Source: Candidatus Heimdallarchaeota archaeon
Lineage (GTDB): Archaea; Asgardarchaeota; Heimdallarchaeia; Heimdallarchaeales; Heimdallarchaeaceae
Assembly: GCA_030668875.1 (NCBI GenBank)
Contig: DAOVER010000004.1
Location: 60,001-92,000, forward strand
Length of the DNA stretch: 32,000 nucleotides
Direction: 5' to 3'
The notes below the pieces were generated by a model. That model had not been told where the DNA came from, did no database searches, and saw only the letters and a list, made by a program, of their open reading frames with translations. Below are positions 12,655-32,000 of the stretch, one piece after another; the first letter of the stretch is position 1; each line of letters opens with the position of its first letter. Made by a program: the position numbers and the translations under genes.

Positions 12655-12691
12655 TTAATCGAACTTGACAAAGATTAGGAGTAAATCTAAA

Positions 12692-15349: not shown

Positions 15350-15405
15350 TAACACGGACAGAAGTAGTTTTCTTACTAAGAAAAAAGGAATAGAATTTTG
15401 GTTGT

Positions 15406-18872: not shown

Positions 18873-19874
18873 ATGAAGAAAAAACTTGAAGTAGCCTTAG
18901 TTGGTTGTGGTGCTGTTGCAGAATATTACCACTTGCCTGTTTTGCAAAGAATGCCAGAATATAATGTAAAATATCTTGTGGATTTAAGCAAAGATAGGGC
19001 AGAAACAATCAAGAAACGTTTTCGGATGAGTTCTAAAACTGAAACGAATTTTGAGAAAATTTTAAACGATGACCAACTAGATGCCGTAATGATTCTTACT
19101 CCACCCACACTTCATAAAGATCAAATATTCTTAGCAGCAGAGGCAAAAAAAGCAATATTCTGCGAGAAACCATTATCAATGAATGTCAATGAGGCTGTAG
19201 AGATTGTTGGTATATGCAAGAAAAATGATGTTCCTATTCTCCCAGGTTATCAAATGCGTTTTGATGGAAAGTATTCAAAGATTAAAGAACTCATAGATAA
19301 GAAAATGTTTGGAGAACTCATAGGAGGACAAGGATTGCACTTTGCTAATGCATTTGAATGGCCAAGTGTTTCTAAGTTTCAAATAGATGATAAGAAAGGT
19401 GGGGGGGCACTATTTGAGATGATGCATTTTGTAGATTTATCAACCTGGTATTTTGGTAAAGCAATATCTATGACTGCGACAATATCTAAAAAGAAGAAGA
19501 AATCACCTATAGATGACACTGCAAACTTGCACATAACCTTTGAAAATGATGTTTCGGTTTCATTAAGTATAGGTTGGAACACCATAACTGTAAATTCTTT
19601 TACTGTTTATGGAACAGAGGGATATTTACGAGCATTATCGGATTCAAAGAAAATGCAGTATCATGCTAAAAATTTCCTTGCTCAACAACCTATTCTAATT
19701 AAGCCTAATCATACCATCTCGCCTTTTCAAGATGAGTTGCTACATTTCTATAGAATTATTACCGAGAACAAAACCCCAATGATAACACAACAAGAAATTA
19801 TTCAAAATGCGAAAATTGTTGAAATAGCTTACAGTGAATCAAGCAAAAACAAGACCATGATGTTGGAGGATTAA
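18873..19874 (+). CDS. Gfo/Idh/MocA family NAD(P)-dependent oxidoreductase
   Basis: VALVGCGAVA Rossmann motif, ILTPPTLH, FCEKPLS, GGGALFEMMHFVD. Confidence 0.9.
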   Translation: MKKKLEVALVGCGAVAEYYHLPVLQRMPEYNVKYLVDLSKDRAETIKKRFRMSSKTETNFEKILNDDQLDAVMILTPPTLHKDQIFLAAEAKKAIFCEKPLSMNVNEAVEIVGICKKNDVPILPGYQMRFDGKYSKIKELIDKKMFGELIGGQGLHFANAFEWPSVSKFQIDDKKGGGALFEMMHFVDLSTWYFGKAISMTATISKKKKKSPIDDTANLHITFENDVSVSLSIGWNTITVNSFTVYGTEGYLRALSDSKKMQYHAKNFLAQQPILIKPNHTISPFQDELLHFYRIITENKTPMITQQEIIQNAKIVEIAYSESSKNKTMMLED

Positions 19875-19875
19875 C

Positions 19876-20940
19876 ATGCTTCCCCGAGTTATTGTGTCTA
19901 AGATACTCAGCCCTAAAGATGTTAATAAGAGGGTTAGTCAATCTCTTGATGCCTTGTCAACTGCTTTTGTTGATGACGATTTAGTGGCTATCAAACCCAA
20001 TTTATGTGACTTTAGACCTTATGAACAAGGCGGAACTACTGATCCAAACATAATCGAAGCAATTATTGTTTATATTCGAAAGCAATCATCCTGTCAAATC
20101 GCTATTGTTGAAAGCGATCATGCTCTTGCTACAGCTGATGAAGAATTCCAAAGAATGAACTATAGTTACCTTGAAGACAAATATGAAAATGTGAGTTTGG
20201 TTAACTTAACAACTGATGCTCAAAAGCAGATAGCTGTTGATGGATATTATTTTCAAGAATTAACAGTAGCAGAGACTTTACTCAAAATGACCAAGTTCAT
20301 CAATGTTGCGAAACTAAAAACACATACACTGACAAGAATAACATGTATTTTGAAAAACCAATTTGGTTTGATATCTAGAAGATACAAGAAGCGATATCAC
20401 CCAGTTCTTAGCGAGGTTTTACTCGATTTAATTGGTTTATTCCCTCCAGATATTTCAGTTGTAGATGGAATATATTCGATGGAAGGTGCTGGTCCTTCTG
20501 ATGGAGATTTAAGAAAAACAAACATTCTACTTTTTGGCGATAATCCAATTGTAACTGATGTTGTAGCAGCAAAAATCATGGGAATTAAACCAAGTAGAGT
20601 TCCAGTCTTGAGACTAGCTAAGAGGAAGAGAATTAGTGATTTAAACCACGAGAAAATTGAAAGCTTACCCAACTTCCGCTTCAAGCAGGCTCCTTGGTAT
20701 TCTTTTGCAGCTAGGCGTTTTGGTTTAAAATATCAGAAGAGAGCAGCCAAACGATATAAGAAGAAAATAGAACATGCGAAATTCATCTCTGATGTGGCAG
20801 CAGGATTTATTGTTATTCAACAAGGTAAATATCCTACCTTACAATCAGGATTAATTGATCGAAAAATATTCTGGAGAGTTGTAAAGAGCATGATTAGAAG
20901 ACCATTTGTGTTGCTCAATCATAGGTTAAAAGGCATCTGA
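19876..20940 (+). CDS. DUF362 family protein
   Basis: VAIKPNL, GGTTDP, FINVAKLKTH, TCILKNQFG, VVDGIYSMEGAGP..G, DNPIVTDVVAA. Confidence 0.85.
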   Translation: MLPRVIVSKILSPKDVNKRVSQSLDALSTAFVDDDLVAIKPNLCDFRPYEQGGTTDPNIIEAIIVYIRKQSSCQIAIVESDHALATADEEFQRMNYSYLEDKYENVSLVNLTTDAQKQIAVDGYYFQELTVAETLLKMTKFINVAKLKTHTLTRITCILKNQFGLISRRYKKRYHPVLSEVLLDLIGLFPPDISVVDGIYSMEGAGPSDGDLRKTNILLFGDNPIVTDVVAAKIMGIKPSRVPVLRLAKRKRISDLNHEKIESLPNFRFKQAPWYSFAARRFGLKYQKRAAKRYKKKIEHAKFISDVAAGFIVIQQGKYPTLQSGLIDRKIFWRVVKSMIRRPFVLLNHRLKGI

Positions 20941-20994
20941 ATCTTACACAATAGTCAAGTAAACTTTTTTATGTCCTTGTAGTTTATTGGATTC

Positions 20995-21564
20995 ATGAGT
21001 GATGATAAGAACTATTTTGTCCATCCAACAGCATTTGTTGAAGATAATGTGACAATTGGTGAAGGAACAAAGATCTGGCACTTTGGACAAGTTCGAACTG
21101 GAGCTAAACTCGGAAAGAATTGCATTTTAGGTAAATCTTCCTTTATTGATACCAATGTCTCAATTGGTAATAATGTAAAAATACAGAATTTCGTTTCAGT
21201 TTATCACGGAGTAATTATACAAGACGATGTATTTGTGGGTCCTCATGTTTGCTTTACTAATGATTATTTGCCTAGAGCTAATTATCCAGATTGGGAATTA
21301 GTTGAAACTTTAGTGAAGAAAGGAGCATCACTCGGTGCTAATTCTACAATCGTTTGTGGAATTACAATAGGAGAATATTCAATGATTGGTGCAGGCAGCG
21401 TAGTAACAAAAAGTACCAATCCATTCACCCTAGTTTTTGGAAATCCAGCAAAATTGAGAGGGTATGTTTGTTATTGTGGAAATATTATCCAAAAAACAAA
21501 TCAGCCTTTACCAGTTGGTAGCACTTTACAGTGTGAAAAATGTAATAAGAAAATAGAAGTCTAA
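20995..21564 (+). CDS. Left-handed beta-helix N-acetyltransferase, WbpD/WlbB-like (UDP-3-amino-GlcNAcA acetyltransferase type)
   Basis: FVHPTA, IGEGTKIWHF, VKIQNFVSVYHGV, VFVGPHVCFTND..PRA, GASLGANSTIVCG, GNPA, C-terminal CYCG...CEKC. Confidence 0.85.
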   Translation: MSDDKNYFVHPTAFVEDNVTIGEGTKIWHFGQVRTGAKLGKNCILGKSSFIDTNVSIGNNVKIQNFVSVYHGVIIQDDVFVGPHVCFTNDYLPRANYPDWELVETLVKKGASLGANSTIVCGITIGEYSMIGAGSVVTKSTNPFTLVFGNPAKLRGYVCYCGNIIQKTNQPLPVGSTLQCEKCNKKIEV

Positions 21565-22173: not shown

Positions 22174-23370
22174 TTGGAGAAAAAGAGCAAGACTTCTGGA
22201 AACCACGAAAAGTTCGATCAAGATTTAAATCTTGAAGAACGAGTTGAAAGAGATTATCCAAGGAAACCTAAATCATTTTATTCTTCAATTGAACCAATCA
22301 TTAAAAATCGCATTCTTAGGTATACAGTGTCATTTATCCTTGTTGCAATTGTTGTTTATTTCTACATTGTCTTTGAAGGTAATCGAGAAGATGATGTTGT
22401 AAAAGTATTTTTCTTTGATATGTCCTCATATTTGCTAGTTCCAATAGCTTTAGTTTTAGCGTTTATTGCTATTTTTTACATAACTTGGGATGATAAGATT
22501 TTCAGAAGATTTCGCTCTCCCGGACTATATATGATTTTATTAACAGGAATATTTTACATTCTGATTTTTTCAGGAATTGATGAGTACCTATTTCAGAACA
22601 CTCTAGCTAAATGGTTAACACAGGGGACTGCTGTAATAGTTGTAGCACTTGTAAGATTATTTGGTATGAATATTGTTGACACAACTTGGAGTGCCGATGA
22701 TGTCATAACCATCATACAATTTGATGGTCCAAGTGGACCTTTATCTCCACAATTTCAGCTTTTTTATGACTATTTTGAAAACATACCCATCATACAATTT
22801 GTGGGTCGACTTTCATCTATTGGTATTGATGCAAGGTGCAGTGGAATACATTCACTCACAATCTTTGTTACAATATTTTTACTTATGTTATTTGAAGCTA
22901 GAAAGCGATTAAGATGGAGTAAATACAGAACTTTTTCTGACTTGAGGGCTTTACTGAATAAGAACGGAATAAGGGGTGTTTTTGATAAACAAGGCTCAAA
23001 AACCCTCCTGATTCTTAGCGGTACCTTTACACTTAATTTCTTGCGTGTGATTGGTATACTTCTTGTTGGGATGATTGGTACATATTTAGTAAATATTTTG
23101 CGCGTGACAATTATTTTTATTATTAATTATTTTGAAGGATGGGGTGTAGCTGAACCTATCCATAACTATCTTGGATATGTGTTTTTGATGATTTGGGTTC
23201 CAATTTTTTGGTTATTTATCCTTCCTCTTTTCGAAAAGAAGAAAGAACCAAAAATTTCTGTTGACTCCAAAAGTGAACCTTCAATTTCCAACTCTGATTT
23301 AACAGATAATTCTACCACTGATTCCAATGACTCGCTTGAAATCGTTGAATCAAATAAAAATAAAGAATAA
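22174..23370 (+). CDS. Archaeosortase/exosortase-family membrane protease/transpeptidase
   Basis: Multi-TM; putative Cys-Arg-His triad in IDARCSGIHSL, LVNILRV and IHNYLGY. Confidence 0.85.
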   Translation: MEKKSKTSGNHEKFDQDLNLEERVERDYPRKPKSFYSSIEPIIKNRILRYTVSFILVAIVVYFYIVFEGNREDDVVKVFFFDMSSYLLVPIALVLAFIAIFYITWDDKIFRRFRSPGLYMILLTGIFYILIFSGIDEYLFQNTLAKWLTQGTAVIVVALVRLFGMNIVDTTWSADDVITIIQFDGPSGPLSPQFQLFYDYFENIPIIQFVGRLSSIGIDARCSGIHSLTIFVTIFLLMLFEARKRLRWSKYRTFSDLRALLNKNGIRGVFDKQGSKTLLILSGTFTLNFLRVIGILLVGMIGTYLVNILRVTIIFIINYFEGWGVAEPIHNYLGYVFLMIWVPIFWLFILPLFEKKKEPKISVDSKSEPSISNSDLTDNSTTDSNDSLEIVESNKNKE

Positions 23371-23379
23371 CCAATTTCT

Positions 23380-24537
23380 TTAAACAACTTCCTCATAGAC
23401 TGATTGAGTTAATTTAGCTGTATTTTCCCATGTGTATGATTCAGCAACTCTTCTGGAAATTTCTTTTTTGCTTTCAAGTTTCTTTCTATTTTCATATAAT
23501 TCAATAATTTTTTCTGAAAAGTCTTTCACTGTTCTTGGAGTGACAATTATGCTGTTCTTATGATTAAAAGTTATAGCACCTTCTGAAGCAAGTATTGGAG
23601 TTTGACAAGATAGAGCCTCAAGGATTGTGAGACTCATTCCTTCATGGCTTGAAGGTAGCAAAAACAAATCTAATGAACTAAAGAATGAATTCTTCCTTTC
23701 AAGATCGGAAATGTAGCCTAGATTTAGCACATTATTTTGTAGTTGATATTTGTTCATCTGCTTTATCATCTCATGTTTGGTATTTAGGTCATCTCCTGCT
23801 AGAAGTAGTTTGATGCCGGGAATCTCCTTTTTTACCAAGTTCAAAATGGGTAATAACATTCTAGCACCTTTAGAGGCTGTCATTCGGGCTAGAAATCCAA
23901 GAACGAACTCTTCTTCCTTCTTCTCATAAACATGCTTTTCTACTCTCTTATGTATCTCCGAATTAACACCGTTTGGAACAATAGTTATCTTATCTTCTTT
24001 AATAGAATAATGGCGTACTAAATCCTCTCTTATTGTATCACTTACTGCTATGAGGTGCTTGGCTCTGTGAAGTAGTTTCTTCTCTATTCTCTTTAACCAA
24101 GGAAAGAAATATTGTACTCGTTTTTCAACCCAACTTAAAGAACGGTTGGGCTCGGCCTTAGTTCCTTCTTTTTCTCTATTGAATGTTGTATGGACTGTTT
24201 CGATAACAGGCAGAGTATTAGTGATGCCTAAAGACGAAAGTAGGTTCATATTTCCATGAACTAAAGCAGGGTTGATTTTGTTTACCTCATGTTTAGAATT
24301 CTTCCAAAATTGACGTGAATAGAAAAATTTGGAATTAGTGGTTTTTGTCAGAATCAGATTAGAAACACCTTCATAAACATCCGATTCAGATTTGTACCTA
24401 TTTGCTGCAATTATATAGGGTTTCCATTTACCCATCTGTTCTATGCTGTTTGCCAGGTTTACGCAATATATCCACGTTGCACCCCTTTTGTATTCTTGAG
24501 TGAGGTAACAAACTGTTTTTTCATCCATTTTTTTCAC
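23380..24537 (-). CDS. GT4 (GT-B) glycosyltransferase
   Basis: ETVHT, VPNGVN, GFLARM..SKG, PSSHEGMSLTILEA (E-x7-E). Confidence 0.9.
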   Translation of the reverse strand: MKKMDEKTVCYLTQEYKRGATWIYCVNLANSIEQMGKWKPYIIAANRYKSESDVYEGVSNLILTKTTNSKFFYSRQFWKNSKHEVNKINPALVHGNMNLLSSLGITNTLPVIETVHTTFNREKEGTKAEPNRSLSWVEKRVQYFFPWLKRIEKKLLHRAKHLIAVSDTIREDLVRHYSIKEDKITIVPNGVNSEIHKRVEKHVYEKKEEEFVLGFLARMTASKGARMLLPILNLVKKEIPGIKLLLAGDDLNTKHEMIKQMNKYQLQNNVLNLGYISDLERKNSFFSSLDLFLLPSSHEGMSLTILEALSCQTPILASEGAITFNHKNSIIVTPRTVKDFSEKIIELYENRKKLESKKEISRRVAESYTWENTAKLTQSVYEEVV

Positions 24538-25410
24538 CTAATCAAGTAAAGTTTCAATTCTAATTATTGGTAGTTTTGAGCACATTTGATGGAATTTGGA
24601 ATGTGTAGTGGCTTTGAAGTCGTATTTATTTACATAAGAAAGAACTTTATTTACCGTTTTTTCTAGTCTTAACGGTTCGTATATTGCATGAACATAGAAA
24701 CAAACATACTTTGTTCCATTTTCAATATGATTGTCGAATCTTTTTTTGTATTCTGAAACTATCTGATCTGTAGATTTACCCTTTGCTATATGCTCCTCAA
24801 TTGTAGGTTCAGTTACTGGGAACTGAGCAAGTTGCGATTTTTTCTCTTCTAACTGGAGTACAAAGGGTTCAGAATACTTGAAGTCTGCAGAAAATTTGAA
24901 TTTATTATCAAATAAAGTCTGAAAGTAGTGTTTGTTTACACTGAAATTAGGCGCTGCATTTGCTATTGGTTTCCTCTGAAAAATGCTCTTGTATTCATAA
25001 ATGAAGTTTGAAACTATATCTCTGGTTTTATCCTTTGAGAGGTTTGCGAAATTAGTTGACCAACGAACATGATTGTAGCCATGAGGATGGATTTCAGTAT
25101 TGGAATCTTTGTCTATGCTTTGAAGGTATTTCTTTTCGTTGTCCCCAATATTTTTTGCAGGAAGTATAATCCCTCTAAACAAACTTTTGAAGCTATTTCT
25201 TTTCCATGGAGGAATGCTACTTGTTATCCTTTCTTTTTTTTGTATTTTCCTGAAAAGGTTTCTGCCCGTTTCATACTTCCCAAGACTAAGATAGATTGAT
25301 ATGGGGATTTCATGCTTCTTGGAAATTTCGAGAACTTTTGGGATGCCCTTCTTTAATCCTTCAAAGGTATCGACATCTACTCTAAGGCAGAAATTTGTTT
25401 CAGAGTTCAT
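24538..25410 (-). CDS. ArnD-like deformylase / polysaccharide deacetylase (NodB/CE4 fold)
   Basis: LRVDVDTFEGLKKGIPKVLEI..KH..ISIYLSLG...GRNLFR parallels ArnD LRIDVDT..G...GVP.LLE...KH...SIFFSVG...GRHLWR; HPHGYNHVRW metal motif; YVHA. Confidence 0.8.
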   Translation of the reverse strand: MNSETNFCLRVDVDTFEGLKKGIPKVLEISKKHEIPISIYLSLGKYETGRNLFRKIQKKERITSSIPPWKRNSFKSLFRGIILPAKNIGDNEKKYLQSIDKDSNTEIHPHGYNHVRWSTNFANLSKDKTRDIVSNFIYEYKSIFQRKPIANAAPNFSVNKHYFQTLFDNKFKFSADFKYSEPFVLQLEEKKSQLAQFPVTEPTIEEHIAKGKSTDQIVSEYKKRFDNHIENGTKYVCFYVHAIYEPLRLEKTVNKVLSYVNKYDFKATTHSKFHQMCSKLPIIRIETLLD

Positions 25411-25449
25411 CGTTATATGCTCACAAATCTGTATGTTCTCTTTAAGTAA

Positions 25450-26673
25450 TTAATGTTCTAAAGCATTAAAATATATTTGTTCAATTTCCTTGGCTTTCTT
25501 TTTCCATGAGAAGTTAGCTGTTACTTCATCAAAACCTAATTGTGCAACTCTTTCTGATTTCTCTTTATCTTTCAGTAAACTAAGAATTCCATCAGCTAAT
25601 TGAGAGATGTCTTTCGATTTAACTAAAATACAATGTGCTCCCTTCTTTGTGATTTCTCTAATACCTGGAATATCAGAAGCTACTACAGGTTTTTTCATAG
25701 CCATTGCTTCTAGAACACTTATACTTGATGCTTCAACGATGCTTGGAACTACAATTATATCTGCTCTTGATAAAAATGAAGGAATACTATCGTTTGGAAC
25801 CATCCCTACAAAAATAACGCTCTTTTCTAATCCTAATCTCTGGACTTCACGGTATATATTGTTTCTTTCTGGTCCATCTCCAATGATGTATAATTTTGCT
25901 GTGGGGTATTCTTCAGTGATTTTCTTGAAACTTCTTGCTAAGAATATAACTCCATTTTTCACAACCAATCTCCTTGTTGTCATTATAATGGGGCCCGCTT
26001 CTTCTGATATCATAGGATTTGGTTTGGTTTTATAATTGAATTTTTGGATATCTACTCCATTTAGAACAGTTACTACTTTCTTTGCATTTTTTGGTTTGCA
26101 CCATTTTTTCACAGTCTCTGCAAAGTCAAAATCTGTATGTATCTGATAATCTGCTTTTCTTGCTAGCAATGGTGCTAACCGTCTCTCCATTCCCTTGTAA
26201 AACCATACAGCAAAAGGGTTTCTAGTTAGTTCATTCCAGTACTTATAGTAAGACCCATGGATGGTATTTATTGCCTTTGCTTTACTTTTTTTACTCAAAA
26301 AATATGCTGCAAGTCCTGAAGAATATATGTGTCCATGGAAAATGTCAGAGTTTTCTACTAAACTATGTATTTTCTTTCTAAGAAATTTCGTTTTTAGTAG
26401 AAAGAATAATTGTCTCGAGAATTTTAGTTGCTGAGGATCATATGCTTTACCGATAAGTGAGAGATAATCGATCCTCTTTATTTTCACACCATCAATCATT
26501 GTATCTTTTTTTGAATTGGGTATAGCTCCAGTCAAATATGTTACGTTGTGACCCATCTTAACCAGTTCTTTTGAAAGGTTGATGGCGTGTAATTCAACCC
26601 CCCCACCGATAACCCCCCCATCATTAGGTCCCAGTTCAAAGAGCATAGTAATGTTCAATGCCATCTTTCTCAC
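25450..26673 (-). CDS. GT4 (GT-B) glycosyltransferase
   Basis: GGGVELH...LVKMGHNV, FHGH, TIHG, LNGVD, RRLVVKNG, GDGP, VPSIVEASSISVLEA (E-x7-E), SDIPGIRE. Confidence 0.92.
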   Translation of the reverse strand: MRKMALNITMLFELGPNDGGVIGGGVELHAINLSKELVKMGHNVTYLTGAIPNSKKDTMIDGVKIKRIDYLSLIGKAYDPQQLKFSRQLFFLLKTKFLRKKIHSLVENSDIFHGHIYSSGLAAYFLSKKSKAKAINTIHGSYYKYWNELTRNPFAVWFYKGMERRLAPLLARKADYQIHTDFDFAETVKKWCKPKNAKKVVTVLNGVDIQKFNYKTKPNPMISEEAGPIIMTTRRLVVKNGVIFLARSFKKITEEYPTAKLYIIGDGPERNNIYREVQRLGLEKSVIFVGMVPNDSIPSFLSRADIIVVPSIVEASSISVLEAMAMKKPVVASDIPGIREITKKGAHCILVKSKDISQLADGILSLLKDKEKSERVAQLGFDEVTANFSWKKKAKEIEQIYFNALEH

Positions 26674-27659
26674 TTCTTGAAATGTGGGTTAAAAATTTCT
26701 TTCAGAATACCTATGCTCCACCACACATGCCCTTCTATAAACATAATGGGTAACAAATAGAAAAATGTGGGTTGCTTAAAGCGCATTGTCTGTACAATTG
26801 TAGCTATTAGAATTGTAAGTAAATAAGCACCATAGTATCCTATAACGATCCATCCACACCACAAGTTTACTAATAGCAAAGACAGAAGGAAAAGACCTGA
26901 TACAAAGTAAATGGGTGGTAAAAGATGCCATATCTCTAACCCTGTTTTGTGCAGTCTGTAGAATTGTATTTTTCCTAATGCATATTTTTTTGACTTGTTT
27001 CGAACTGATTTATGATTTTGAGGACGTTGATGATATACTATAGCATCTGGGATAAATAAAATTGAATAACCTTTCTGAATTAATCTAAAATTAATATCCG
27101 TGTCCTCAGCTGTAATTAATGATTCATTAAATGGTAGTACCTCATTTAAAGCTGCTCTCATATATGCGGCATTGCATCCAGCAGCACTTTCAACTAATCG
27201 TTTTTCTTTGTTAAATATACTTTGAACTTGTTCAGACCATTTTCCTCCCAAAAACGTATTATAAATTGCGCTTACAGCTTTCCCAAAAACACTCTCATTA
27301 GGATATTCAATATTTGGTCCAGTTACGCACACAATCTTCTCATCTTGAGTTTCCTCAAAAGCGCCGACTAGTTTTTCTAACCAATTTTCCTTAGCTATAA
27401 CATCCGAGTCAGTAAATGCCACAATCTCTCCTTGTGAAATCTCTAAGGCTTTATTACAAGCTGCTGACCTAGACCCACCATCTTCATATGTAATTGTACA
27501 ATTGAATTCTTTTGCGATATCAATTGATCCATCGGTAGAATGACCATCTGAGATGATGATTTCCAGTGGTTTAAAGGTTTGTTTAACTATAGATTGTAGA
27601 CATGCCTGAAGTGTTTTTGCGTTATTGTATGTGGGGATAACCACAGAGACAGTTTTCAT
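26670..27659 (-). CDS. GT2 (GT-A) glycosyltransferase with C-terminal TM helices
   Basis: VSVVIPTYN, DGHSTDGS, FTDSD (DxD), AEDTDINFRL; three hydrophobic helices at the C-terminus. Confidence 0.92.
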   Translation of the reverse strand: MKTVSVVIPTYNNAKTLQACLQSIVKQTFKPLEIIISDGHSTDGSIDIAKEFNCTITYEDGGSRSAACNKALEISQGEIVAFTDSDVIAKENWLEKLVGAFEETQDEKIVCVTGPNIEYPNESVFGKAVSAIYNTFLGGKWSEQVQSIFNKEKRLVESAAGCNAAYMRAALNEVLPFNESLITAEDTDINFRLIQKGYSILFIPDAIVYHQRPQNHKSVRNKSKKYALGKIQFYRLHKTGLEIWHLLPPIYFVSGLFLLSLLLVNLWCGWIVIGYYGAYLLTILIATIVQTMRFKQPTFFYLLPIMFIEGHVWWSIGILKEIFNPHFKK

Positions 27660-27664
27660 TCGTA

Positions 27665-28189
27665 TTAATCATTAGATTTCATTATTATTAATTCTTCCTT
27701 CAAAAAATGCTTCTTCTTATAACCCCCGGATTCATACATGACACTTTGGTAATCAAATACAATTTCAGGTTTAGTACCTAAATATTCGTGGACAATTATT
27801 TCAGCTTTTTGAAGTAATCTTTCTGTCCCCTTTTTTTCTGTAAGTGCACAATACCATACATACCATCTAAGCCTATACTCTTTTTCTCCCTCAGGCTTGA
27901 TTTTTACAAAAAGAGGAAATAGCTTACAATCAAGAGGACGATTTTCATAGATGCAACATAAACCTTTATCTGAAAGAAAATAGCAGTCAATCAAATTTTC
28001 CTTTTTACTTACAACTCGAATATTATTTTTCCCATTAATAGTTTTGAACCAGTTTTTTTCTTTTGTAATTGCTTGAATTCTGCTGAAATCTTCTTTTGTC
28101 AATGCAGGTGGGGTGCTGCGGCAACACTTGCTCCCACATACTATACTACATGTTTTTTCATCAGACGCTTTTTCCATAGAATCAACCAA
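27665..28189 (-). CDS. YkgJ family cysteine-cluster (Zn or Fe-S) protein
   Basis: CSIVCGSKCC ... CYFL...GLCCIYENRPLDCKLFP. Confidence 0.85.
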   Translation of the reverse strand: MVDSMEKASDEKTCSIVCGSKCCRSTPPALTKEDFSRIQAITKEKNWFKTINGKNNIRVVSKKENLIDCYFLSDKGLCCIYENRPLDCKLFPLFVKIKPEGEKEYRLRWYVWYCALTEKKGTERLLQKAEIIVHEYLGTKPEIVFDYQSVMYESGGYKKKHFLKEELIIMKSND

Positions 28190-28212
28190 TTTTTCTTATC
28201 ACAAGTTCTTGA

Positions 28213-29502
28213 CTAACTATCGGTTTCAAAATTGAAAGCTTCTTTAACCATATCTTCCACATTATCAGCCTTTTTAATAATTCTAATTTGCCCCACTTCA
28301 TCTAATTCATATACAGCAGGACGAGGATATCCGAATTGTTCACTCATTGAAAGCGTATATGCTCCACAATTGAGAACCGTTATTTGATCTCCTTCATCAA
28401 TTTGATAGCTCACAGATTCATTTGAAATCACATCGACTGGGAGACATAGAGGACCCCCAATTCTGCAGTATGGGCCCTCCCCTTTATTTTGACCTGGAAC
28501 TGCTAGGTAATGTGAATATCGCATTGGTATAAGTGAATTGGCTCCAATATCAATAAATGCCCACTTTCTTCCCCATGAGCTCTTTGTTCGTAAAACTTTA
28601 GCAACGGCAACAAAACTATCCTCCACCAAATATCTACCTGGTTCAAGAATAATTGTCATATCATCAACATTTTCAATACTTGTTGAAATCTGCTCAGCAT
28701 ATCGATTTAGATCAAAACCATTTGAATCAAGCGTGCTTTTACTTGCAAGTCCACCTCCAAGGTTCAAATGTTCTATCTCGATCCCATGTTTATTCACTAG
28801 TTCCTTGATGTATTTATTCATAAAAACTAATAATTCTTCATAAAATGAATGAGAAATAAGATTGGTCCCAACATGAACATGAACACCAGTAGGTTCAAGA
28901 TGAGGACTTTTTTTAGCAAACTTGTAAAGTTTTATTGCTCTTTCGTAATCTATTCCTAATTTACTATTCTTCTTGATAAGCAATTTCTTTTCTGTTTCCT
29001 CACTTAACAAAGGATGAATTCTAATTGTAATTTCTTGTTTCATCTCTTTTGCTTTAGCAATATTTTCTATGTTTTGAAGTTCATTCATAGATTCAATGTT
29101 CAAATATTGAATCCCTTTTGTCATAGCTAATTCTAATTCTTGCGCTGTTTTTGCTGGTCCATTAAACACAATTTGCTTAAAATTGAATCCTGCTTTCTCC
29201 GCTAATAACAACTCAAAAAGGGACATAGCTTCAGCATTCATGTTCAAAGATTTCGCGTGCTGAAGAACTCGACCTAAGTAATTTGCCTTGATTGCATATG
29301 AAATGTGTGATTTAGCAACATGTTTACTCAAAGCTGTTTTCAATTGATTATAATTGTGTTCAAAACGTTCAGGTAGATAAAGAAAGAACGGCGTAGCCAT
29401 TTTTTCTGCAATATCTAAAGACGATTTCTTGTTAATGTGAAGAAGATTTTCCTCATACTTAAGATACGGATAATGTTTAATTTTATCTTCAATTTCCTTC
29501 AT
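28213..29502 (-). CDS. Fold-type III PLP-dependent decarboxylase (LysA/ornithine decarboxylase superfamily), substrate uncertain
   Basis: TPFFLY, YAIKAN (PLP Lys), FNGPAKT, SKLGI, HVHVGT, NLGGG, LEPGRYLV, GPLC, GAY. Confidence 0.9.
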   Translation of the reverse strand: MKEIEDKIKHYPYLKYEENLLHINKKSSLDIAEKMATPFFLYLPERFEHNYNQLKTALSKHVAKSHISYAIKANYLGRVLQHAKSLNMNAEAMSLFELLLAEKAGFNFKQIVFNGPAKTAQELELAMTKGIQYLNIESMNELQNIENIAKAKEMKQEITIRIHPLLSEETEKKLLIKKNSKLGIDYERAIKLYKFAKKSPHLEPTGVHVHVGTNLISHSFYEELLVFMNKYIKELVNKHGIEIEHLNLGGGLASKSTLDSNGFDLNRYAEQISTSIENVDDMTIILEPGRYLVEDSFVAVAKVLRTKSSWGRKWAFIDIGANSLIPMRYSHYLAVPGQNKGEGPYCRIGGPLCLPVDVISNESVSYQIDEGDQITVLNCGAYTLSMSEQFGYPRPAVYELDEVGQIRIIKKADNVEDMVKEAFNFETDS

Positions 29503-29613
29503 TTCATCACACTGATTTTTTTTCGATACAAGGAGATATATGTTTTTATTATTTGTTCTAATTACTAATATCTTTTCTTTGAAATTGAAAAATTTTGCCT
29601 TCTAATTGAAAAA

Positions 29614-29621
29614 TTATTAAA
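29614..29621 (+). promoter_or_regulatory. Candidate BRE/TATA (GAAAAA-TTATTAAA) for a leaderless transcript of the BpsA-like gene
   Basis: TATA-like element ends about 24 nt before ATG 29645 and is preceded by a purine run. Confidence 0.4.
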
Positions 29622-29644
29622 GCTTTGATTATCTAGTCATACTG

Positions 29645-30805
29645 ATGAATGAATTAACCTTTCTTGAGCAACTAAGTGAAGTTACCAAAAATGTAGCAAT
29701 AAAAGAGGGACTCGTTGGCATCTTACGTAACTTGGCGGTTATTTCTCGCTTTCCTGAAGAACCGATGCGTAAAGTCGCTCAAGAAAGCAATTTACCCGTT
29801 CCAATATGTGTGGCCATTCGAAATGAGTTTGAGAAACTTGGTTGGGTATCAAGGGGAAAGAAAGGTGCTTTCCTCACACCATTAGGACAAGATGTTTTCA
29901 ATTCTCACGGTGGTTTTAATGAGAGACATGAATGCATCAAATGCAGTGGAACCGGTATAACTATTCCGTATTCAAAGTTTCAGAAAGAACTGGAAGCGAT
30001 GAAAAGGTATGGTAATATGAGAGGTAAACCATTCACTCAATTAGATCAATCGTTCGCGACTCCTAGAACCAGTCTGGCAAGAATATTCTATATGATTCAA
30101 AATTATGATCTTACTAGAAGAAACTTTGCCTTTTTGGGTGATAGTGATTTGACAAGTATTGCTTTAGCTATGTTTGCTAACAAATCATCTAGAATTGTAG
30201 TTTTTGATGTGGATAAGCGACTAAAGGCGATTATAGAATCTGCAAATCAAGAAAATAGTGTTCAAATAGAATTCATTGAACATGATTTAAGAAACCCTAT
30301 CCCTCCAGAATATCTAAAAAAGTTCGATTGTATTTCCACTGATCCACCATATACTCTACACGGGCTGAATTTATTTATCTCGCGTGGTCTAACCCTACTT
30401 TCAGATAAACACAATGGAGTAGGATATCTTTCATTTGGTGTGAAGCCCTCAAACGAAATCTTAGAATTGGAGAAAAGCTTAATCCAGATGAATTGCGCGA
30501 TAACTCACATAGTTCCAAACTTCAATAAATACATTGGAGCTCAGAAATTGGGTGGTGTATCCAGTTTGTATAGATTCGAAATTATTCCCCCAGCTACACC
30601 ATTGATAAAGGATGTGTATAACTCCTCTCTTTACACAGGAGATATTAACCCAATAATTCGTACATATGAGTGTCTAAATTGTAAGTCCGATATTGATGTT
30701 GGGATTAATCAGTTATTTTCAACAATTGAAGAACTAAAAACTAAAGGGTGTCCTTATTGCAATCATGAGTTTTTTTCTAAAGTAAGCGAGAGAAAAATGG
30801 AATGA
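29645..30805 (+). CDS. BpsA/DUF43-like (branched-chain polyamine synthase-fold) aminopropyltransferase-like protein with extra CxxC motifs
   Basis: LDQSFATP...R, FLGDSDLTSIALA, VVFDVDKRL, HDLRNPIP, FDCISTDPPYT..G..LFISRG: the DUF43 pattern. CIKC near the N-terminus; CLNC...CPYC at the C-terminus. Confidence 0.8.
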   Translation: MNELTFLEQLSEVTKNVAIKEGLVGILRNLAVISRFPEEPMRKVAQESNLPVPICVAIRNEFEKLGWVSRGKKGAFLTPLGQDVFNSHGGFNERHECIKCSGTGITIPYSKFQKELEAMKRYGNMRGKPFTQLDQSFATPRTSLARIFYMIQNYDLTRRNFAFLGDSDLTSIALAMFANKSSRIVVFDVDKRLKAIIESANQENSVQIEFIEHDLRNPIPPEYLKKFDCISTDPPYTLHGLNLFISRGLTLLSDKHNGVGYLSFGVKPSNEILELEKSLIQMNCAITHIVPNFNKYIGAQKLGGVSSLYRFEIIPPATPLIKDVYNSSLYTGDINPIIRTYECLNCKSDIDVGINQLFSTIEELKTKGCPYCNHEFFSKVSERKME

Positions 30806-30836
30806 TTTTAAAAGTACAACTCAGATATAAGAAATA

Positions 30837-31511
30837 ATGAGGATTTTAGATGAAATTTATCTTATTCCAAGTTTTGTCAATTGCTATTTGATAGAACGAG
30901 AACAGTACTCTGTTCTAATAGATACTGGAATGAGTAAAAAGGCAAAAGATGTGATCCAAACAATTAAATCTTTTTGCTCGGATAAACCCCTTAAAGGCAT
31001 AATTATTACTCACGCTCACCAAGATCATATGGCCGGACTAGAAACTCTAGGACAGTTGTATGGTTCAATAGTAATAGCACATAAAGAGGAAAGCGACTAT
31101 ATAATGAAAATAAAAGACATGCCAACAAAAGAGGGTTTTTCTGGAAAAACATTTTCTTTATTAAGTAAAATGTTTTCTTCATCTAGCTATACCGTTGATC
31201 AGGTTGTTACTGATTACGAAGTAATCTATGGGTTGAAGGTTTTCCATCTCCCCGGTCACACACCAGGAAGCATAGCTTTGGAAGATATAGAGAATCACGC
31301 ATTGTTCTGTAGCGATATACTAAACACTGATAAGAAGGGTACGAAATTGATACCTCCAAGCAAGAGATTCGCTCTGGATTATGAACAAGCTCTAAAATCT
31401 TCTATCAAATTGCTCAAGGAATCAAAACCAAGTGTGATATTGCCTGGTCATGGAGCTCCACTTTTTGAACCAGAAGAAGCAATAAAAGAATATTTAGAAA
31501 AATATAATTAG
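30837..31511 (+). CDS. Metallo-beta-lactamase-fold hydrolase
   Basis: LIDTG, THAHQDH (HxHxDH), HLPGHTPGS, CSD, PGHG. Confidence 0.92.
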   Translation: MRILDEIYLIPSFVNCYLIEREQYSVLIDTGMSKKAKDVIQTIKSFCSDKPLKGIIITHAHQDHMAGLETLGQLYGSIVIAHKEESDYIMKIKDMPTKEGFSGKTFSLLSKMFSSSSYTVDQVVTDYEVIYGLKVFHLPGHTPGSIALEDIENHALFCSDILNTDKKGTKLIPPSKRFALDYEQALKSSIKLLKESKPSVILPGHGAPLFEPEEAIKEYLEKYN

Positions 31512-31519
31512 GTGTAAAT

Positions 31520-32000
31520 GTGTCTCGAAAATCGTTTTTCATTCCTGCAATAATCATTGGGCAACTACTTCTAGTGTTCCTAATTTTATATTTCAATGTG
31601 GGTATGTATGGATTTGATGCGTATATTCATTTACAGTATGTTGATTCTATTCTAGGAAACCAACACATAATTGAATTGGATGTTGCAAAATCATATTACG
31701 ATTTTATCGGTTTTCATGTGTTTGCATCAGCTTTATCTGCATTAACAGGATTGAAACCAAGCATTATCTTTGAATTTGTTAGTATAATGGTTCCCATATT
31801 ACTCTTTGACTTTTCAATAATTGCCTTCATTCGTCATCTAGAAAAGAAAAAAAAGGGCTATACCTCTCACAGCTTTAATCTCAGATATTTTGCACTGATA
31901 CTCCTCTTCCCATCAATCATTGGGATTCAGATGTTCTTGGGTCGACCAAATACTTTGGGAATAGGTTTGTTTAGTTTGTGTTTGTATCTGTATTTGTGCA
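31520..32000 (+). CDS. Polytopic membrane protein, GT-C-like (5' part only, runs off the window)
   Basis: Not in the ORF track. Manual translation from GTG 31520 (AGGTG RBS) is open to the window end: VSRKSFFIPAIIIGQLLLVFLILYFNVGMYGFDAYIHLQYVDSILG...GFHVFASALSALTG...GRPNTLGIG. The G.D...H...V..I pattern after TM1 is typical of GT-C loop 1. Confidence 0.65.
   Translation, partial: MSRKSFFIPAIIIGQLLLVFLILYFNVGMYGFDAYIHLQYVDSILGNQHIIELDVAKSYYDFIGFHVFASALSALTGLKPSIIFEFVSIMVPILLFDFSIIAFIRHLEKKKKGYTSHSFNLRYFALILLFPSIIGIQMFLGRPNTLGIGLFSLCLYLYLC

What the first reader, a model, noticed from the sequence alone, without database searches (positions are those of the whole stretch)
23380..32000. Candidate undescribed system: SAM-dependent two-step aminopropylation module built into a surface-glycosylation locus
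Seen: a 142-nt divergent promoter drives two arms. Leftward, a tightly packed operon: decarboxylase > YkgJ > GT2 > GT4 > ArnD-like > GT4 (gaps 23, 5, -4, 39, 0 nt). Rightward: BpsA-like > MBL hydrolase > GT-C-like (gaps 31, 8 nt). Both polyamine-type enzymes carry non-canonical active-site residues, and no SAM decarboxylase or spermidine synthase is in the window. Established precedent: in microcin C biosynthesis, MccD transfers 3-amino-3-carboxypropyl from SAM and the PLP-dependent decarboxylase domain of MccE converts it to aminopropyl, bypassing dcSAM. Inference: the BpsA-like enzyme adds an aminocarboxypropyl group to an amine, possibly one unmasked by the ArnD-like or MBL hydrolase on a lipid-linked sugar. 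The decarboxylase then yields an aminopropyl group and the GT-C exports the cationic sugar to glycoproteins or lipids. This would give a polyamine-like decorated archaeal cell surface. The pathway is a hypothesis from gene context and motifs only.
Basis: inference. Interest (0 to 1): 0.8.

Follow-up and report, generated by a model that had tools for sequence, protein, structure and literature searches.

The report
Asgard aminopropylation module without SAM decarboxylase
A family of Heimdall (Asgard) archaea has swapped the usual SAM decarboxylase partner of a BpsA-type polyamine enzyme for a lysine-pathway-like PLP decarboxylase plus a cysteine-cluster protein, which points to an untested way of adding aminopropyl groups straight from SAM; the link to the neighbouring sugar-transferase genes is not obligatory.

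Summary
Its two-step chemistry gains real comparative support. Its glycan framing does not.

**Conserved core.** The conserved unit is three genes: a BpsA-like enzyme, a divergent fold-III PLP decarboxylase, and a YkgJ-like protein.
- The BpsA-like enzyme reads GDSD, with Ser in place of the Asp159 of Tk-BpsA that binds dcSAM.
- The decarboxylase reads C-L-P-V-D instead of the C-E-S-x-D of LysA.
- The BpsA-like/decarboxylase pair is in 28-29 of 29 related genomes of the window's family.
- Two closed genomes have the trio but lack the ArnD-like and GT-C-like island genes.

**Family-wide pattern.** None of the 30 genomes has AdoMet decarboxylase or DAP epimerase, and 28 have deoxyhypusine synthase.
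- In sister Heimdall families, Bathyarchaeia and bacteria, BpsA homologs keep GDDD.
- There they sit next to, or are fused to, AdoMetDC (40 of 77 loci).
- None of those 77 loci has a fold-III decarboxylase nearby.
- A second Asgard lineage (GDGD) repeats the swap.

**Best reading (about 0.45).** The module replaces the AdoMetDC-BpsA pair. It transfers 3-amino-3-carboxypropyl from SAM and then decarboxylates, as MccD/MccE do, most likely onto agmatine, putrescine or another polyamine.

**Rivals.** A PLP-type SAM decarboxylase; glycan decoration; a decarboxylase that supplies the acceptor amine.

Nothing is biochemically tested. First readers of this scan noted the same module in three other genomes.

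The parts
29645..30805 (+). BpsA-fold (DUF43) SAM-dependent aminoalkyl transferase. It has an N-terminal wHTH and a C-terminal Zn ribbon. Its motif is G165-D166-S167-D168 in place of GDDD. This is core gene 1.
   Evidence: PF01861 scores 166.9 bits. By sequence it matches 2qm3 and 5xnc at E 1e-38 and 8e-37. The AF2 model has pLDDT 83, and its best fold match is 5xnc at E 3e-22. GDSD is present in all family orthologs. The strongest positions that separate them from GDDD homologs are S167, K301 and R310.
29503..29644 (.). 142-nt AT-rich spacer between the two divergent core genes. It is the presumed site of two promoters.
   Evidence: The pair stays adjacent, 113-202 nt apart, across the family's genomes (coordinates). 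Promoter function was not tested.
28213..29502 (-). Fold-III (alanine-racemase-fold) PLP decarboxylase of the DAPDC clade. Its signature is C-L-P-V-D, L-I-P-M-R-Y and M-S-E-Q-F-G-Y-P-R. This is core gene 2.
   Evidence: PF02784 scores 139.9 bits; TIGR01048 scores 264.5, below 297.9. Motifs were compared with true LysA. It forms its own clade with 100/94 support. It is the only PF02784 member of the genome. DapF is absent from all 30 genomes.
27665..28189 (-). YkgJ-like CxxCxxCC protein with eight conserved cysteines, probably an Fe-S or Zn protein. This is core gene 3, and its role is unknown.
   Evidence: PF03692 scores 38.8 bits. The invariant cysteines are C14, C18, C22, C23, C69, C78, C88 and C114. 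It directly follows the decarboxylase in all six family loci examined (L008, L009, L010, L020, L027-L029) and in the distant locus L110. It sits beside a GDND BpsA-like gene in L111.
23380..27659 (-). Neighbouring glycan genes on the same strand: GT2 (26670-27659), GT4 (25450-26673), an ArnD/CE4-like gene (24538-25410) and GT4 (23380-24537). They are probably co-transcribed here but are not part of the conserved core.
   Evidence: The ArnD-like gene is found in g1-g3 and not in g4 or g5. The g5 locus has no GT genes.
30837..32000 (+). MBL-fold hydrolase (30837-31511) and the start of a 589-aa protein with 11 hydrophobic segments, GT-C/PMT-like (31520 to contig position 93289). A further GT4 lies beyond the window. 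These are neighbours, not core.
   Evidence: The MBL gene is absent from L008. The membrane protein is not found in g3-g5.
22174..23370 (+). Exosortase/archaeosortase-like membrane protein, convergent with the last GT4. It flanks the glycan island.
   Evidence: PF09721 scores 34.7 bits. It holds the same position in L008 and L009.

Best explanation
The real unit is a three-gene module: a BpsA-like enzyme with Ser at the Asp159 position, a DAPDC-clade PLP decarboxylase, and a YkgJ-like cysteine-cluster protein. In the window's family (called f1 here; source names say Heimdallarchaeaceae) it has taken the place of the AdoMet decarboxylase + BpsA pair found in other archaea and in bacteria.

Proposed mechanism (inferred, not shown):
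1. The BpsA-like enzyme binds SAM itself rather than dcSAM.
2. It transfers the 3-amino-3-carboxypropyl group to an amine and releases MTA.
3. The decarboxylase removes the carboxyl group, leaving an aminopropyl group. The net chemistry is that of AdoMetDC plus an aminopropyltransferase, with the two steps in reverse order, as proposed for MccD/MccE in microcin C.

The most likely acceptor is a free polyamine precursor such as agmatine or putrescine. That would give carboxyaminopropylagmatine or carboxyspermidine, and then N1-aminopropylagmatine or spermidine. This would supply the spermidine-type substrate that deoxyhypusine synthase is known to use in most organisms.

The glycosyltransferase genes that follow in this genome are neighbours, perhaps co-transcribed, and not an obligatory part of the module. 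The role of the YkgJ-like protein is unknown.
For: **Shown here**

(1) The pair is conserved.
- Orthologs of the BpsA-like gene are in 29/29 related genomes of the family, and orthologs of the decarboxylase in 28/29.
- They are adjacent wherever both lie on one contig.

(2) Partner swap.
- AdoMet_dc is absent from all 30 genomes of the family, including two closed ones.
- It is present in 10/12, 20/22 and 2/2 genomes of families f7, f5 and f6.
- There it lies directly beside the BpsA homolog (f7, f6) or is fused to it in one roughly 462-aa frame (f5).

(3) Wider sample of 80 loci from archaea and bacteria.
- 77 loci are GDDD. Of these, 40 have AdoMetDC within 2.1 kb and none has a fold-III decarboxylase within 10 kb.
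- The 3 GDSD loci all have the decarboxylase and YkgJ, and none has AdoMetDC.

(4) The substituted residue matters.
- Asp159 and Asp160 of Tk-BpsA salt-bridge the aminopropyl amine of dcSAM and are essential (review PMC12979288).
- The family has Ser at that position in 98% of sequences, against Asp in 70/70 GDDD homologs.
- It has also gained two basic residues, K301 and R310.

(5) Repeat in another Asgard family (genome G396).
- A GDGD BpsA-like gene lies 3.6 kb from a C-L-P-T-D decarboxylase with 40% identity.
- That genome has no AdoMet_dc.

(6) A triangle of linkage.
- Decarboxylase followed by YkgJ in L110.
- A GDND BpsA-like gene divergent from YkgJ in L111.

(7) The decarboxylase is not LysA.
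- It scores below the TIGR01048 cut-off.
- The DAP-binding residues are lost.
- It forms a separate clade.
- DapF is absent from all 30 genomes, and DapB is below its cut-off in this genome.

(8) Pathway gap.
- This genome has a PdaD-like gene, an agmatinase (224.7 bits, above the 174.3 cut-off) and DHS. DHS is in 28/30 genomes of the family.
- It has no convincing SpeE.
- It has no CASDH. Its only saccharopine-dehydrogenase homolog matches PH1688 at 246 bits and CASDH at 38 bits, and it occurs class-wide.

**From the literature**
- MccD (methyltransferase fold) plus the MccE N-domain carry out ACP transfer followed by decarboxylation (PMC10491745).
- MccE is an AR-fold decarboxylase of the DAPDC clade (PMC7857480).
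Against: - No biochemical, transcript or metabolite data exist for any member.
- The order of the two steps cannot be read from genomes. Even for MccD/MccE, the dcSAM-first route is 'not completely ruled out' (PMC10491745).
- One GDSD homolog (P0059) has no decarboxylase within 8 kb. The Hermod-type GDND gene has YkgJ but no decarboxylase within 10 kb upstream or 2.8 kb downstream.
- Many Heimdall genomes (f2, f3, most of f4) have neither AdoMetDC nor this decarboxylase. Aminopropylation is therefore not universal in the class, and the 'DHS needs spermidine' argument is soft.
- The two closed g5 genomes lack a PdaD-like gene. There the decarboxylase could be the arginine decarboxylase instead.
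- In most genomes of the family the module heads tightly packed GT operons, with gaps from 5 to -4 nt. A glycan-linked acceptor is not excluded.
- I could not measure whether K301 and R310 lie near the SAM carboxylate, because no model coordinates were available to me.
Confidence: 0.45

Rival explanations
1. The PLP decarboxylase is a new, non-pyruvoyl SAM decarboxylase. It makes dcSAM, and the BpsA-like enzyme then uses dcSAM as an ordinary aminopropyltransferase.
For: It fits the same partner swap: AdoMetDC is lost and the decarboxylase is gained at the same place. The corresponding route b for MccE/MccD has not been ruled out (PMC10491745).
Against: If dcSAM were still the donor, nothing would select against Asp159. 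That residue is essential in Tk-BpsA and invariant in 70/70 AdoMetDC-type homologs. Yet it is Ser or Gly in every lineage that carries the decarboxylase.

All known AdoMetDCs are pyruvoyl enzymes (own knowledge). A PLP-bound SAM carbanion is the intermediate that ACC synthase cyclises with loss of MTA, so side reactions would be expected. This last point is an inference from established mechanism.
Confidence: 0.2
2. One reading: the pair aminopropylates an amino sugar on a lipid-linked glycan. The ArnD-like or MBL hydrolase unmasks that sugar, and the GT-C-like protein flips or transfers it, giving a cationic cell surface.
For: In genera g1-g3 the module heads two GT operons with very short gaps, and the arrangement holds at 46-50% protein identity.
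Against: - The trio exists without any GT neighbour in two closed genomes.
- The ArnD-like and GT-C-like genes are not found at all in g4 and g5.
- The MBL gene is dispensable.
- The synteny that includes MetRS, RIO1 and eIF genes shows vertical inheritance of the whole neighbourhood, not independent re-association.
- G396, L110 and L111 carry parts of the module and have no glycosyltransferase among their called genes.
Confidence: 0.1
3. The decarboxylase makes the amine acceptor, acting as an arginine, ornithine or lysine decarboxylase or a similar enzyme. The BpsA-like enzyme then adds an aminocarboxypropyl group (or a methyl group) from SAM. The carboxyl stays on, giving a nicotianamine- or opine-like compound or a carboxylated polyamine.
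For: The closed g5 genomes lack a PdaD-like gene and any AdoMetDC-family decarboxylase. This is therefore the only decarboxylase found there with these queries. The loss of Asp159 also fits SAM as donor.
Against: - The enzyme sits in the DAPDC clade with MccE, BtrK and the citryl-amino-acid decarboxylases, which act on conjugated amino acids. It does not sit in the ODC, LDC or ADC clades (PMC7857480).
- In g1-g4 it coexists with a PdaD-like gene.
- GDDD homologs pair with the donor-forming enzyme, never with a diamine-forming one.
Confidence: 0.12
4. It is ordinary: a slightly divergent LysA that happens to lie next to an inactive or regulatory BpsA relic.
For: The best named matches are diaminopimelate decarboxylases. 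Sources annotate it as 'diaminopimelate decarboxylase family'.
Against: DapF is absent from all 30 genomes. The DAP-binding residues are lost. The gene is absent from sister families. Both genes are strongly conserved, with invariant catalytic cores.
Confidence: 0.03

Closest known systems
BpsA, N4-bis(aminopropyl)spermidine synthase (EC 2.5.1.128; Thermococcus kodakarensis TK1691, PDB 5XNC; Thermus thermophilus, PDB 6J27), working with AdoMet decarboxylase
   Same: - Same fold and domain order: wHTH followed by a class-I methyltransferase-like domain.
- It keeps G157, D158 and D160, the Asp of T-D-P-P (Asp225) and the Tyr290 equivalent.
- Homologs are gene-linked to the enzyme that handles the SAM carboxyl group.
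   Different: - Asp159 is replaced by Ser.
- The Glu259 position is Pro.
- The C-terminus is a Cys4 zinc ribbon, and no aligned acidic carrier cluster was found.
- The genome has no AdoMetDC, so it has no known source of dcSAM.
- The partner is a PLP enzyme.
- The host comes from marine sediment, not from a documented thermophile.
MccD / MccE N-terminal domain of microcin C maturation
   Same: A SAM-dependent methyltransferase-fold enzyme is paired with an alanine-racemase-fold PLP decarboxylase of the DAPDC clade. Together they install an aminopropyl group without AdoMetDC (PMC10491745, PMC7857480).
   Different: - The transferase here is a BpsA/DUF43 family member. Homology to MccD was not tested.
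- The acceptor in microcin C is a phosphate oxygen of a peptidyl-nucleotide, whereas here it is probably an amine.
- The two enzymes are separate genes plus a third YkgJ-like gene.
- The setting looks like housekeeping, not an antibiotic cluster.
Aspartate-semialdehyde-dependent spermidine routes (CASDH/CASDC; CAPADH/CAPADC/APAUH of Synechocystis)
   Same: These routes would share the carboxylated intermediates (carboxyspermidine or carboxyaminopropylagmatine). They also share a final fold-III PLP decarboxylation and a ureohydrolase step (PMC10599626, PMC12979288).
   Different: - No CASDH or CAPADH is present. The only homolog resembles lysine 6-dehydrogenase PH1688.
- The decarboxylase is LysA-like, not nspC-like: TIGR01047 scores 51.7 bits against a cut-off of 409.
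- The three-carbon unit would come from SAM, not from aspartate semialdehyde.
Diaminopimelate decarboxylase LysA (TIGR01048)
   Same: The fold is the same. The PLP-binding Lys (Y-A-I-K-A-N), H-x-H-x-G, G-G-G, E-P-G-R and G-A-Y motifs and the catalytic Cys are all present.
   Different: - It scores below the family cut-off.
- C-E-S-x-D has become C-L-P-V-D.
- The Arg of R-P-x-L-Y is deleted.
- No DAP pathway is present in the family.
FliB / YkgJ family (PF03692), for the third gene
   Same: It shares the cysteine-cluster CxxCxxCC domain. FliB is a SAM-dependent enzyme whose [4Fe-4S] cluster is held by a Cys-rich motif (PMC8598068). That FliB belongs to this Pfam family is from my own memory.
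   Different: It has no NCBIfam match at E<=0.01. It is much shorter than FliB (own knowledge). Its function here is unknown.

Membership tests
BpsA (branched-chain polyamine synthase, EC 2.5.1.128) | BpsA_C (PF01861) domain and BpsA fold | tested here: met
   166.9 bits against a cut-off of 27. phmmer against 5xnc gives E 8e-37. Foldseek against 5xnc gives E 3e-22.
BpsA (branched-chain polyamine synthase, EC 2.5.1.128) | Conserved G-D-D-D motif with Asp159 and Asp160 holding the aminopropyl amine of dcSAM | tested here: not met
   The motif is G165-D166-S167-D168, with Ser at the Asp159 position. The role of this residue is given in PMC12979288.
BpsA (branched-chain polyamine synthase, EC 2.5.1.128) | Flexible acidic C-terminal cluster that carries the aminopropyl group | tested here: inconclusive
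   The alignment to Tk-BpsA ends at residue 298. The C-terminus is a CxxC...CxxC ribbon. Its last 70 residues hold 10 Asp/Glu and 8 Lys/Arg.
BpsA (branched-chain polyamine synthase, EC 2.5.1.128) | A dcSAM supply (AdoMet decarboxylase) in the genome | tested here: not met
   PF02675 is absent from all 30 genomes of the family, two of them closed. PF01536 gave no hit, but its control search was silent as well.
BpsA (branched-chain polyamine synthase, EC 2.5.1.128) | Activity: dcSAM plus spermidine gives a branched polyamine | not testable with these tools
   This needs an enzyme assay.
Diaminopimelate decarboxylase LysA (TIGR01048) | Score at or above the curated equivalog cut-off | tested here: not met
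   264.5 bits against 297.9.
Diaminopimelate decarboxylase LysA (TIGR01048) | Residues that bind the distal L-centre of DAP (Glu and Ser of C-E-S-x-D; Arg of R-P-x-L-Y). These roles are recalled from LysA structures. | tested here: not met
   C-L-P-V-D, and L-I-P-M-R-Y with the Arg deleted. The changes are conserved across the whole clade.
Diaminopimelate decarboxylase LysA (TIGR01048) | A DAP pathway in the genome | tested here: not met
   DAP epimerase is absent from all 30 genomes. DapB_N scores 21.4 bits, below its cut-off, in this genome.
MccD/MccE-type two-step aminopropylation | A methyltransferase-fold SAM enzyme gene-linked to an AR-fold PLP decarboxylase of the DAPDC clade | tested here: met
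   The placement of MccE in that clade is from PMC7857480.
MccD/MccE-type two-step aminopropylation | ACP transfer from SAM, then decarboxylation of the conjugate | not testable with these tools
   Only indirect evidence is available: loss of Asp159 and absence of AdoMetDC.
Carboxy(nor)spermidine decarboxylase (nspC, TIGR01047) | Family score and a CASDH/CANSDH partner | tested here: not met
   51.7 bits against 409. No CASDH is present; the best PDB match of the only Sacchrp_dh homolog is PH1688, not CASDH.
YkgJ / CxxCxxCC (PF03692) | Cys-cluster domain above the gathering score | tested here: met
   38.8 bits against 23. Eight cysteines are invariant.
ArnD deformylase (NF011923) / CE4 | Score at or above the cut-off | tested here: not met
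   96.1 bits against 382; PF01522 at 21.6 against 23.1. It is a distant relative only.
GT-C glycosyltransferase | A recognised GT-C family domain | tested here: inconclusive
   No Pfam hit. It has 11 hydrophobic segments. Atlas neighbours partly carry PMT_2 or DUF2206.

The most novel reading that the evidence does not exclude
A third, undescribed way to make spermidine-type polyamines. A BpsA-derived enzyme transfers 3-amino-3-carboxypropyl directly from SAM to agmatine or putrescine. A DAPDC-derived PLP enzyme then decarboxylates the product. A [4Fe-4S]/Zn YkgJ-like protein is an obligatory third component. This route would replace AdoMetDC and dcSAM altogether in a family of Heimdall archaea and in at least one other Asgard lineage.
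Probability: 0.35. Interest if true: 0.85.

Novelty: new variant of a known kind. Interest (0 to 1): 0.7.

Why it matters
**What is known.** In the library I searched, aminopropyl groups in polyamines come from only two sources: dcSAM, made by pyruvoyl AdoMetDC, or aspartate semialdehyde, through the CASDH/CAPADH routes.

**What would be new.**
- A SAM-direct route of ACP transfer followed by PLP decarboxylation would be a third solution.
- It would be a clear case of non-orthologous displacement inside a conserved two-gene partnership.
- It would also be a natural example of an aminopropyltransferase retuned from dcSAM to SAM, mainly through one active-site Asp.

**Where it occurs.** It is found in Heimdallarchaeia, which are under discussion as close relatives of the eukaryotic host lineage. 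It therefore bears on what polyamine and hypusine metabolism looked like there.

**How testable.** Two or three genes can be expressed in a polyamine-deficient E. coli strain.

**Annotation.** Current labels such as 'diaminopimelate decarboxylase', 'alanine racemase' and 'bis-aminopropyl spermidine synthase family' are probably wrong for these genes.

Tried and rejected
- **Complex prediction.** I submitted three chains (BpsA-like, decarboxylase, YkgJ-like) with YkgJ as the partner. The score was 0.00, so there is no verdict. This says nothing either way about binding.
- **Sequencing runs.** No RNA holder is listed. Four DNA runs of one marine-sediment study hold the stretch. I did not lay reads.
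- **Promoter and terminator scan.** Counts equal those of shuffled sequence, and the consensus is bacterial, so the result is uninformative.
- **Eukaryote-type AdoMetDC (PF01536).** There was no hit, but the control genomes gave no hit either, so this shows nothing.
- **CASDH route.**
  - I considered it because a Sacchrp_dh_C homolog exists.
  - I rejected it because that protein matches PH1688 at 246 bits and CASDH at only 38 bits.
  - It also occurs across the class regardless of the module.
  - That PH1688 is a lysine 6-dehydrogenase is from my own memory.
- **SpeE.** Only weak hits of 20-36 bits were found, in roughly 280-aa ORFs of genus g1. None was found in g2-g5. I treat them as generic methyltransferases, but I did not examine them.
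- **Distant BpsA homologs as tests of the glycan link.** The Loki-type homolog (P0057) and the bacterial ones (P0055, P0056) show no GT, decarboxylase or YkgJ context, and they are GDDD.
- **Two informative contigs.** The contigs carrying P0059 and P0052 came without DNA. The decarboxylase next to P0052 (GDGD) could therefore not be typed.
- **Position of K301 and R310.** I could not measure their distance to the SAM pocket, because model coordinates are not exposed to me.

Full report
**1. What is in the window**

The window is G000:C38:60001-92000 of a 3.23-Mb assembly. The assembly has 99 contigs and is 92% complete. Names given by sources to near-identical proteins place it in Heimdallarchaeaceae. 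Runs that hold the DNA are marine-sediment metagenomes.

Profile searches confirm the gene identities:
- a fold-III PLP decarboxylase (429 aa);
- a CxxCxxCC/YkgJ-type protein (174 aa);
- a GT2 and a GT4;
- a distant ArnD/CE4 relative;
- a second GT4;
- on the other strand, a BpsA_C protein (386 aa), an MBL hydrolase and a membrane protein.

The contig continues 13.5 kb beyond the window.
- The membrane protein is 589 aa and has no Pfam hit. It has 11 hydrophobic segments and PMT_2/DUF2206-type language-model neighbours.
- Another GT4 follows it, and then MetRS.
- Upstream of the island lie an exosortase-like protein and genes for a hexapeptide acyltransferase, DUF362 and a GFO/IDH/MocA oxidoreductase.

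**2. The two 'polyamine-type' enzymes are non-canonical**

*The BpsA-like protein.*
- It aligns with Tk-BpsA (5xnc) and its Pyrococcus homolog (2qm3) over residues 38-298.
- Its AF2 model has pLDDT 83 and finds the BpsA structures first.
- In that alignment G165-D166-S167-D168 lies on G157-D158-D159-D160 of Tk-BpsA.
- A 2026 review states that the GDDD motif is indispensable. It says Asp159 and Asp160 salt-bridge the aminopropyl amine of dcSAM, and that C-terminal acidic residues carry the aminopropyl group (PMC12979288).
- Here Asp159 is Ser, and the C-terminus is a CxxC...CxxC ribbon.

*The decarboxylase.*
- Its best matches are DAP decarboxylases, but it falls below the lysA equivalog cut-off (264.5 against 297.9 bits).
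- Against true LysA sequences it keeps the PLP lysine, the glycine loop, E-P-G-R, G-A-Y and the Cys.
- It reads C-L-P-V-D instead of C-E-S-G/S-D, lacks the Arg of R-P-x-L-Y, and reads M-S-E-Q-F-G-Y-P-R instead of M-x-S-N-Y-N-x-R-P.
- In a tree these C-L-P proteins form their own clade (100/94 support). A C-M-P-V-D protein is sister to them, and the C-E-S-x-D LysA clade lies elsewhere.

**3. Genome-wide context**
- This decarboxylase is the only PF02784 member of the genome.
- There is no AdoMet_dc.
- SpeE does not reach its cut-off.
- There is no DAP epimerase.
- DapB does not reach its cut-off.
- The genome does have:
  - a divergent pyruvoyl arginine-decarboxylase homolog;
  - two arginase-family proteins, one scoring as agmatinase at 224.7 bits, above the 174.3 cut-off;
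  - deoxyhypusine synthase.
- A saccharopine-dehydrogenase homolog raised the possibility of the aspartate-semialdehyde route.
  - It matches PH1688 at 246 bits and carboxyspermidine dehydrogenase at only 38 bits.
  - It occurs across the class regardless of the module.

**4. Comparative genomics: the core result**

*Across 82 Heimdallarchaeia genomes.*
- The window's family (f1) has the BpsA-like ortholog in 29/29 related genomes and the decarboxylase in 28/29. The two are adjacent wherever both lie on one contig.
- The family has AdoMet_dc in 0 of 30 genomes, including two single-contig genomes.
- Sister families show the opposite pattern.
  - f7 has AdoMet_dc in 10/12 genomes, directly upstream of a BpsA homolog with 36-38% identity (L017).
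  - f5 has it in 20/22 genomes, inside the same roughly 462-aa frame as the BpsA domain, so the two are fused.
  - f6 has it adjacent in 2/2 genomes.
  - None of these families has the C-L-P decarboxylase.
- The motif follows the partner. All f1 orthologs read GDSD, while f7, f5, Loki-type and bacterial homologs read GDDD.

*A scan of one genome per prokaryote species.*
- It returned 80 loci from Heimdall archaea, Bathyarchaeia, Alphaproteobacteria, Actinomycetota, Bacillota, Xenorhabdus and others.
- 77 loci are GDDD. In 40 of them an AdoMetDC homolog lies within 2.1 kb, and in 38 within 550 nt.
- None of the 77 has a fold-III decarboxylase within 10 kb.
- The three GDSD loci have the decarboxylase and YkgJ and no AdoMetDC.

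*Positions that separate the two groups.*
- Position 167 is the cleanest: Ser in 98% of f1 sequences against Asp in 70/70 of the others.
- f1 also gained Lys301 and Arg310.

*Among 146 representatives clustered at 50% identity.*
- 124 are GDDD.
- 11 have Ser, Gly or Asn at this position.
- On a quick tree these variants need at least two, and by parsimony four, changes.

**5. Repeats outside the family**
- **G396.** In this genome of another Asgard family:
  - a GDGD BpsA-like gene (39% identity) lies 3.6 kb from a C-L-P-T-D decarboxylase (40% identity);
  - the genome is 91% complete and has no AdoMet_dc.
- **L110.** In an archaeal contig, the C-M-P-V-D sister decarboxylase is followed directly by a YkgJ-like gene.
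- **L111.** In a Hermod/Promethearchaeota contig, a GDND BpsA-like gene is divergent from a YkgJ-like gene. The tblastn matches lie 69 nt apart.
- **P0052.** A GDGD homolog, with Com_YlbF genes as neighbours, lies 0.9 kb from a fold-III decarboxylase. No DNA was available to type that decarboxylase.
- **P0059.** This GDSD homolog has no decarboxylase within 8 kb.

The three genes are thus linked pairwise in different lineages and all together in f1. The YkgJ-like protein keeps eight invariant cysteines.

**6. The glycosylation link is not obligatory**
- In the closed genome G006 (genus g5), the BpsA-like gene, the decarboxylase and YkgJ sit between an enoyl-CoA hydratase and CysRS on one side, and an amino-acid kinase and GyrB on the other. 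There is no GT gene.
- Across the family, the ArnD-like gene is found in g1-g3 but not in g4 or g5. The membrane protein is found in g1-g2 but not in g3-g5.
- The MBL gene is missing from L008.
- Where the island is present, the whole neighbourhood is syntenic, including MetRS, RIO1 and KH-domain genes. Its conservation therefore reflects descent, not repeated association.
- Co-transcription with the GT genes in this genome remains likely from the 5-nt and -4-nt spacings, but it is untested.

**7. Mechanism**

The evidence shows that the decarboxylase has displaced AdoMetDC as the partner of a BpsA-family enzyme. The displacement coincides with loss of the acidic residue that binds the donor's amine.

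*Simplest reading.* The donor is now SAM, whose carboxylate would clash with Asp159. The enzyme would transfer 3-amino-3-carboxypropyl, and the decarboxylase would then remove the carboxyl group.
- This is the route proposed for MccD and the MccE N-domain (PMC10491745).
- MccE is an alanine-racemase-fold decarboxylase of the DAPDC clade, like this enzyme. That clade otherwise acts on conjugated amino acids (PMC7857480).

*The acceptor (inferred).*
- GDDD relatives pair with AdoMetDC alone in many genomes, which suggests free amines.
- The family has agmatine/agmatinase genes and DHS, but no other aminopropyl route.

*Main rival.* A PLP-type SAM decarboxylase would explain the swap but not the loss of Asp159.

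*Other caveats.*
- Because g5 lacks a PdaD-like gene, a role for the decarboxylase in making the acceptor amine cannot be dismissed.
- Families f2-f4 mostly lack both kinds of decarboxylase, so this chemistry is not essential for the class.

**8. Novelty**

Full-text searches found no description of a SAM-direct ACP route to polyamines, or of this Heimdall module.

Earlier notes of this scan bear on the finding:
- First readers had seen the same pair or cluster in three other genomes, without follow-up.
- Several follow-ups describe BpsA-AdoMetDC pairs and fusions, which agrees with the background pattern found here.

I class this as a new variant of a known kind. The enzymes and the chemistry are known; the combination and the predicted pathway are not. 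No experiment exists.

Noticed in passing
L019:9090-10469 (G056, Heimdall family f5); also G047-G067: In family f5, the BpsA-like domain and a pyruvoyl AdoMet decarboxylase domain lie in one open frame of about 460 aa. This is a fusion, and it is present in about 20 of 22 genomes.
   Followed up: partly
L004:8823-9701 (G000:C88:38823-39701): A second, shorter DUF43 paralog (292 aa). It lacks the wHTH domain, reads G-D-M-D and I-E-P-P instead of GDDD and T-D-P-P, and ends in a zinc ribbon. Homologs of 28-32% identity occur in most Heimdall families. Its neighbours include an RpoH-domain protein and CofD. Its function is unknown.
   Followed up: partly
window 9539-11647 (-): A 702-aa protein with a Ribophorin I domain (55 bits). 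This is a eukaryote-type oligosaccharyltransferase subunit homolog. It is also present beside the syntenic locus L008.
   Followed up: no
window 22174-23370 (+) and 18873-21564 (+): An exosortase/archaeosortase-like protein flanks the glycan island. Next to it lie genes for a GFO/IDH/MocA oxidoreductase, DUF362 and a hexapeptide acyltransferase, which may make a modified sugar.
   Followed up: no
G006 and G007 (closed genomes of genus g5): These genomes have no PdaD-like pyruvoyl arginine decarboxylase and no AdoMetDC-family gene. Archaea normally need agmatine. Their arginine decarboxylase is unidentified and could be the C-L-P decarboxylase.
   Followed up: no
L026:1465-2610 (G000:C22): A saccharopine-dehydrogenase-fold protein that matches Pyrococcus PH1688 (3abi) at 246 bits. 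It lies next to a 457-aa GFO/IDH/MocA oxidoreductase. Copies with 51-64% identity are scattered across several Heimdall families.
   Followed up: partly
Genus g1 genomes, for example G008:C2:33923-34330: ORFs of about 280 aa hit the spermine/spermidine synthase profile weakly (25-36 bits, just over the Pfam cut-off). In G000 the corresponding hits are below the cut-off (20 bits). They could be generic methyltransferases or very divergent aminopropyltransferases.
   Followed up: no
window 12665-17238 (+): Bacterial-type MutS (894 aa) and MutL (610 aa) genes lie side by side in this archaeal genome.
   Followed up: no
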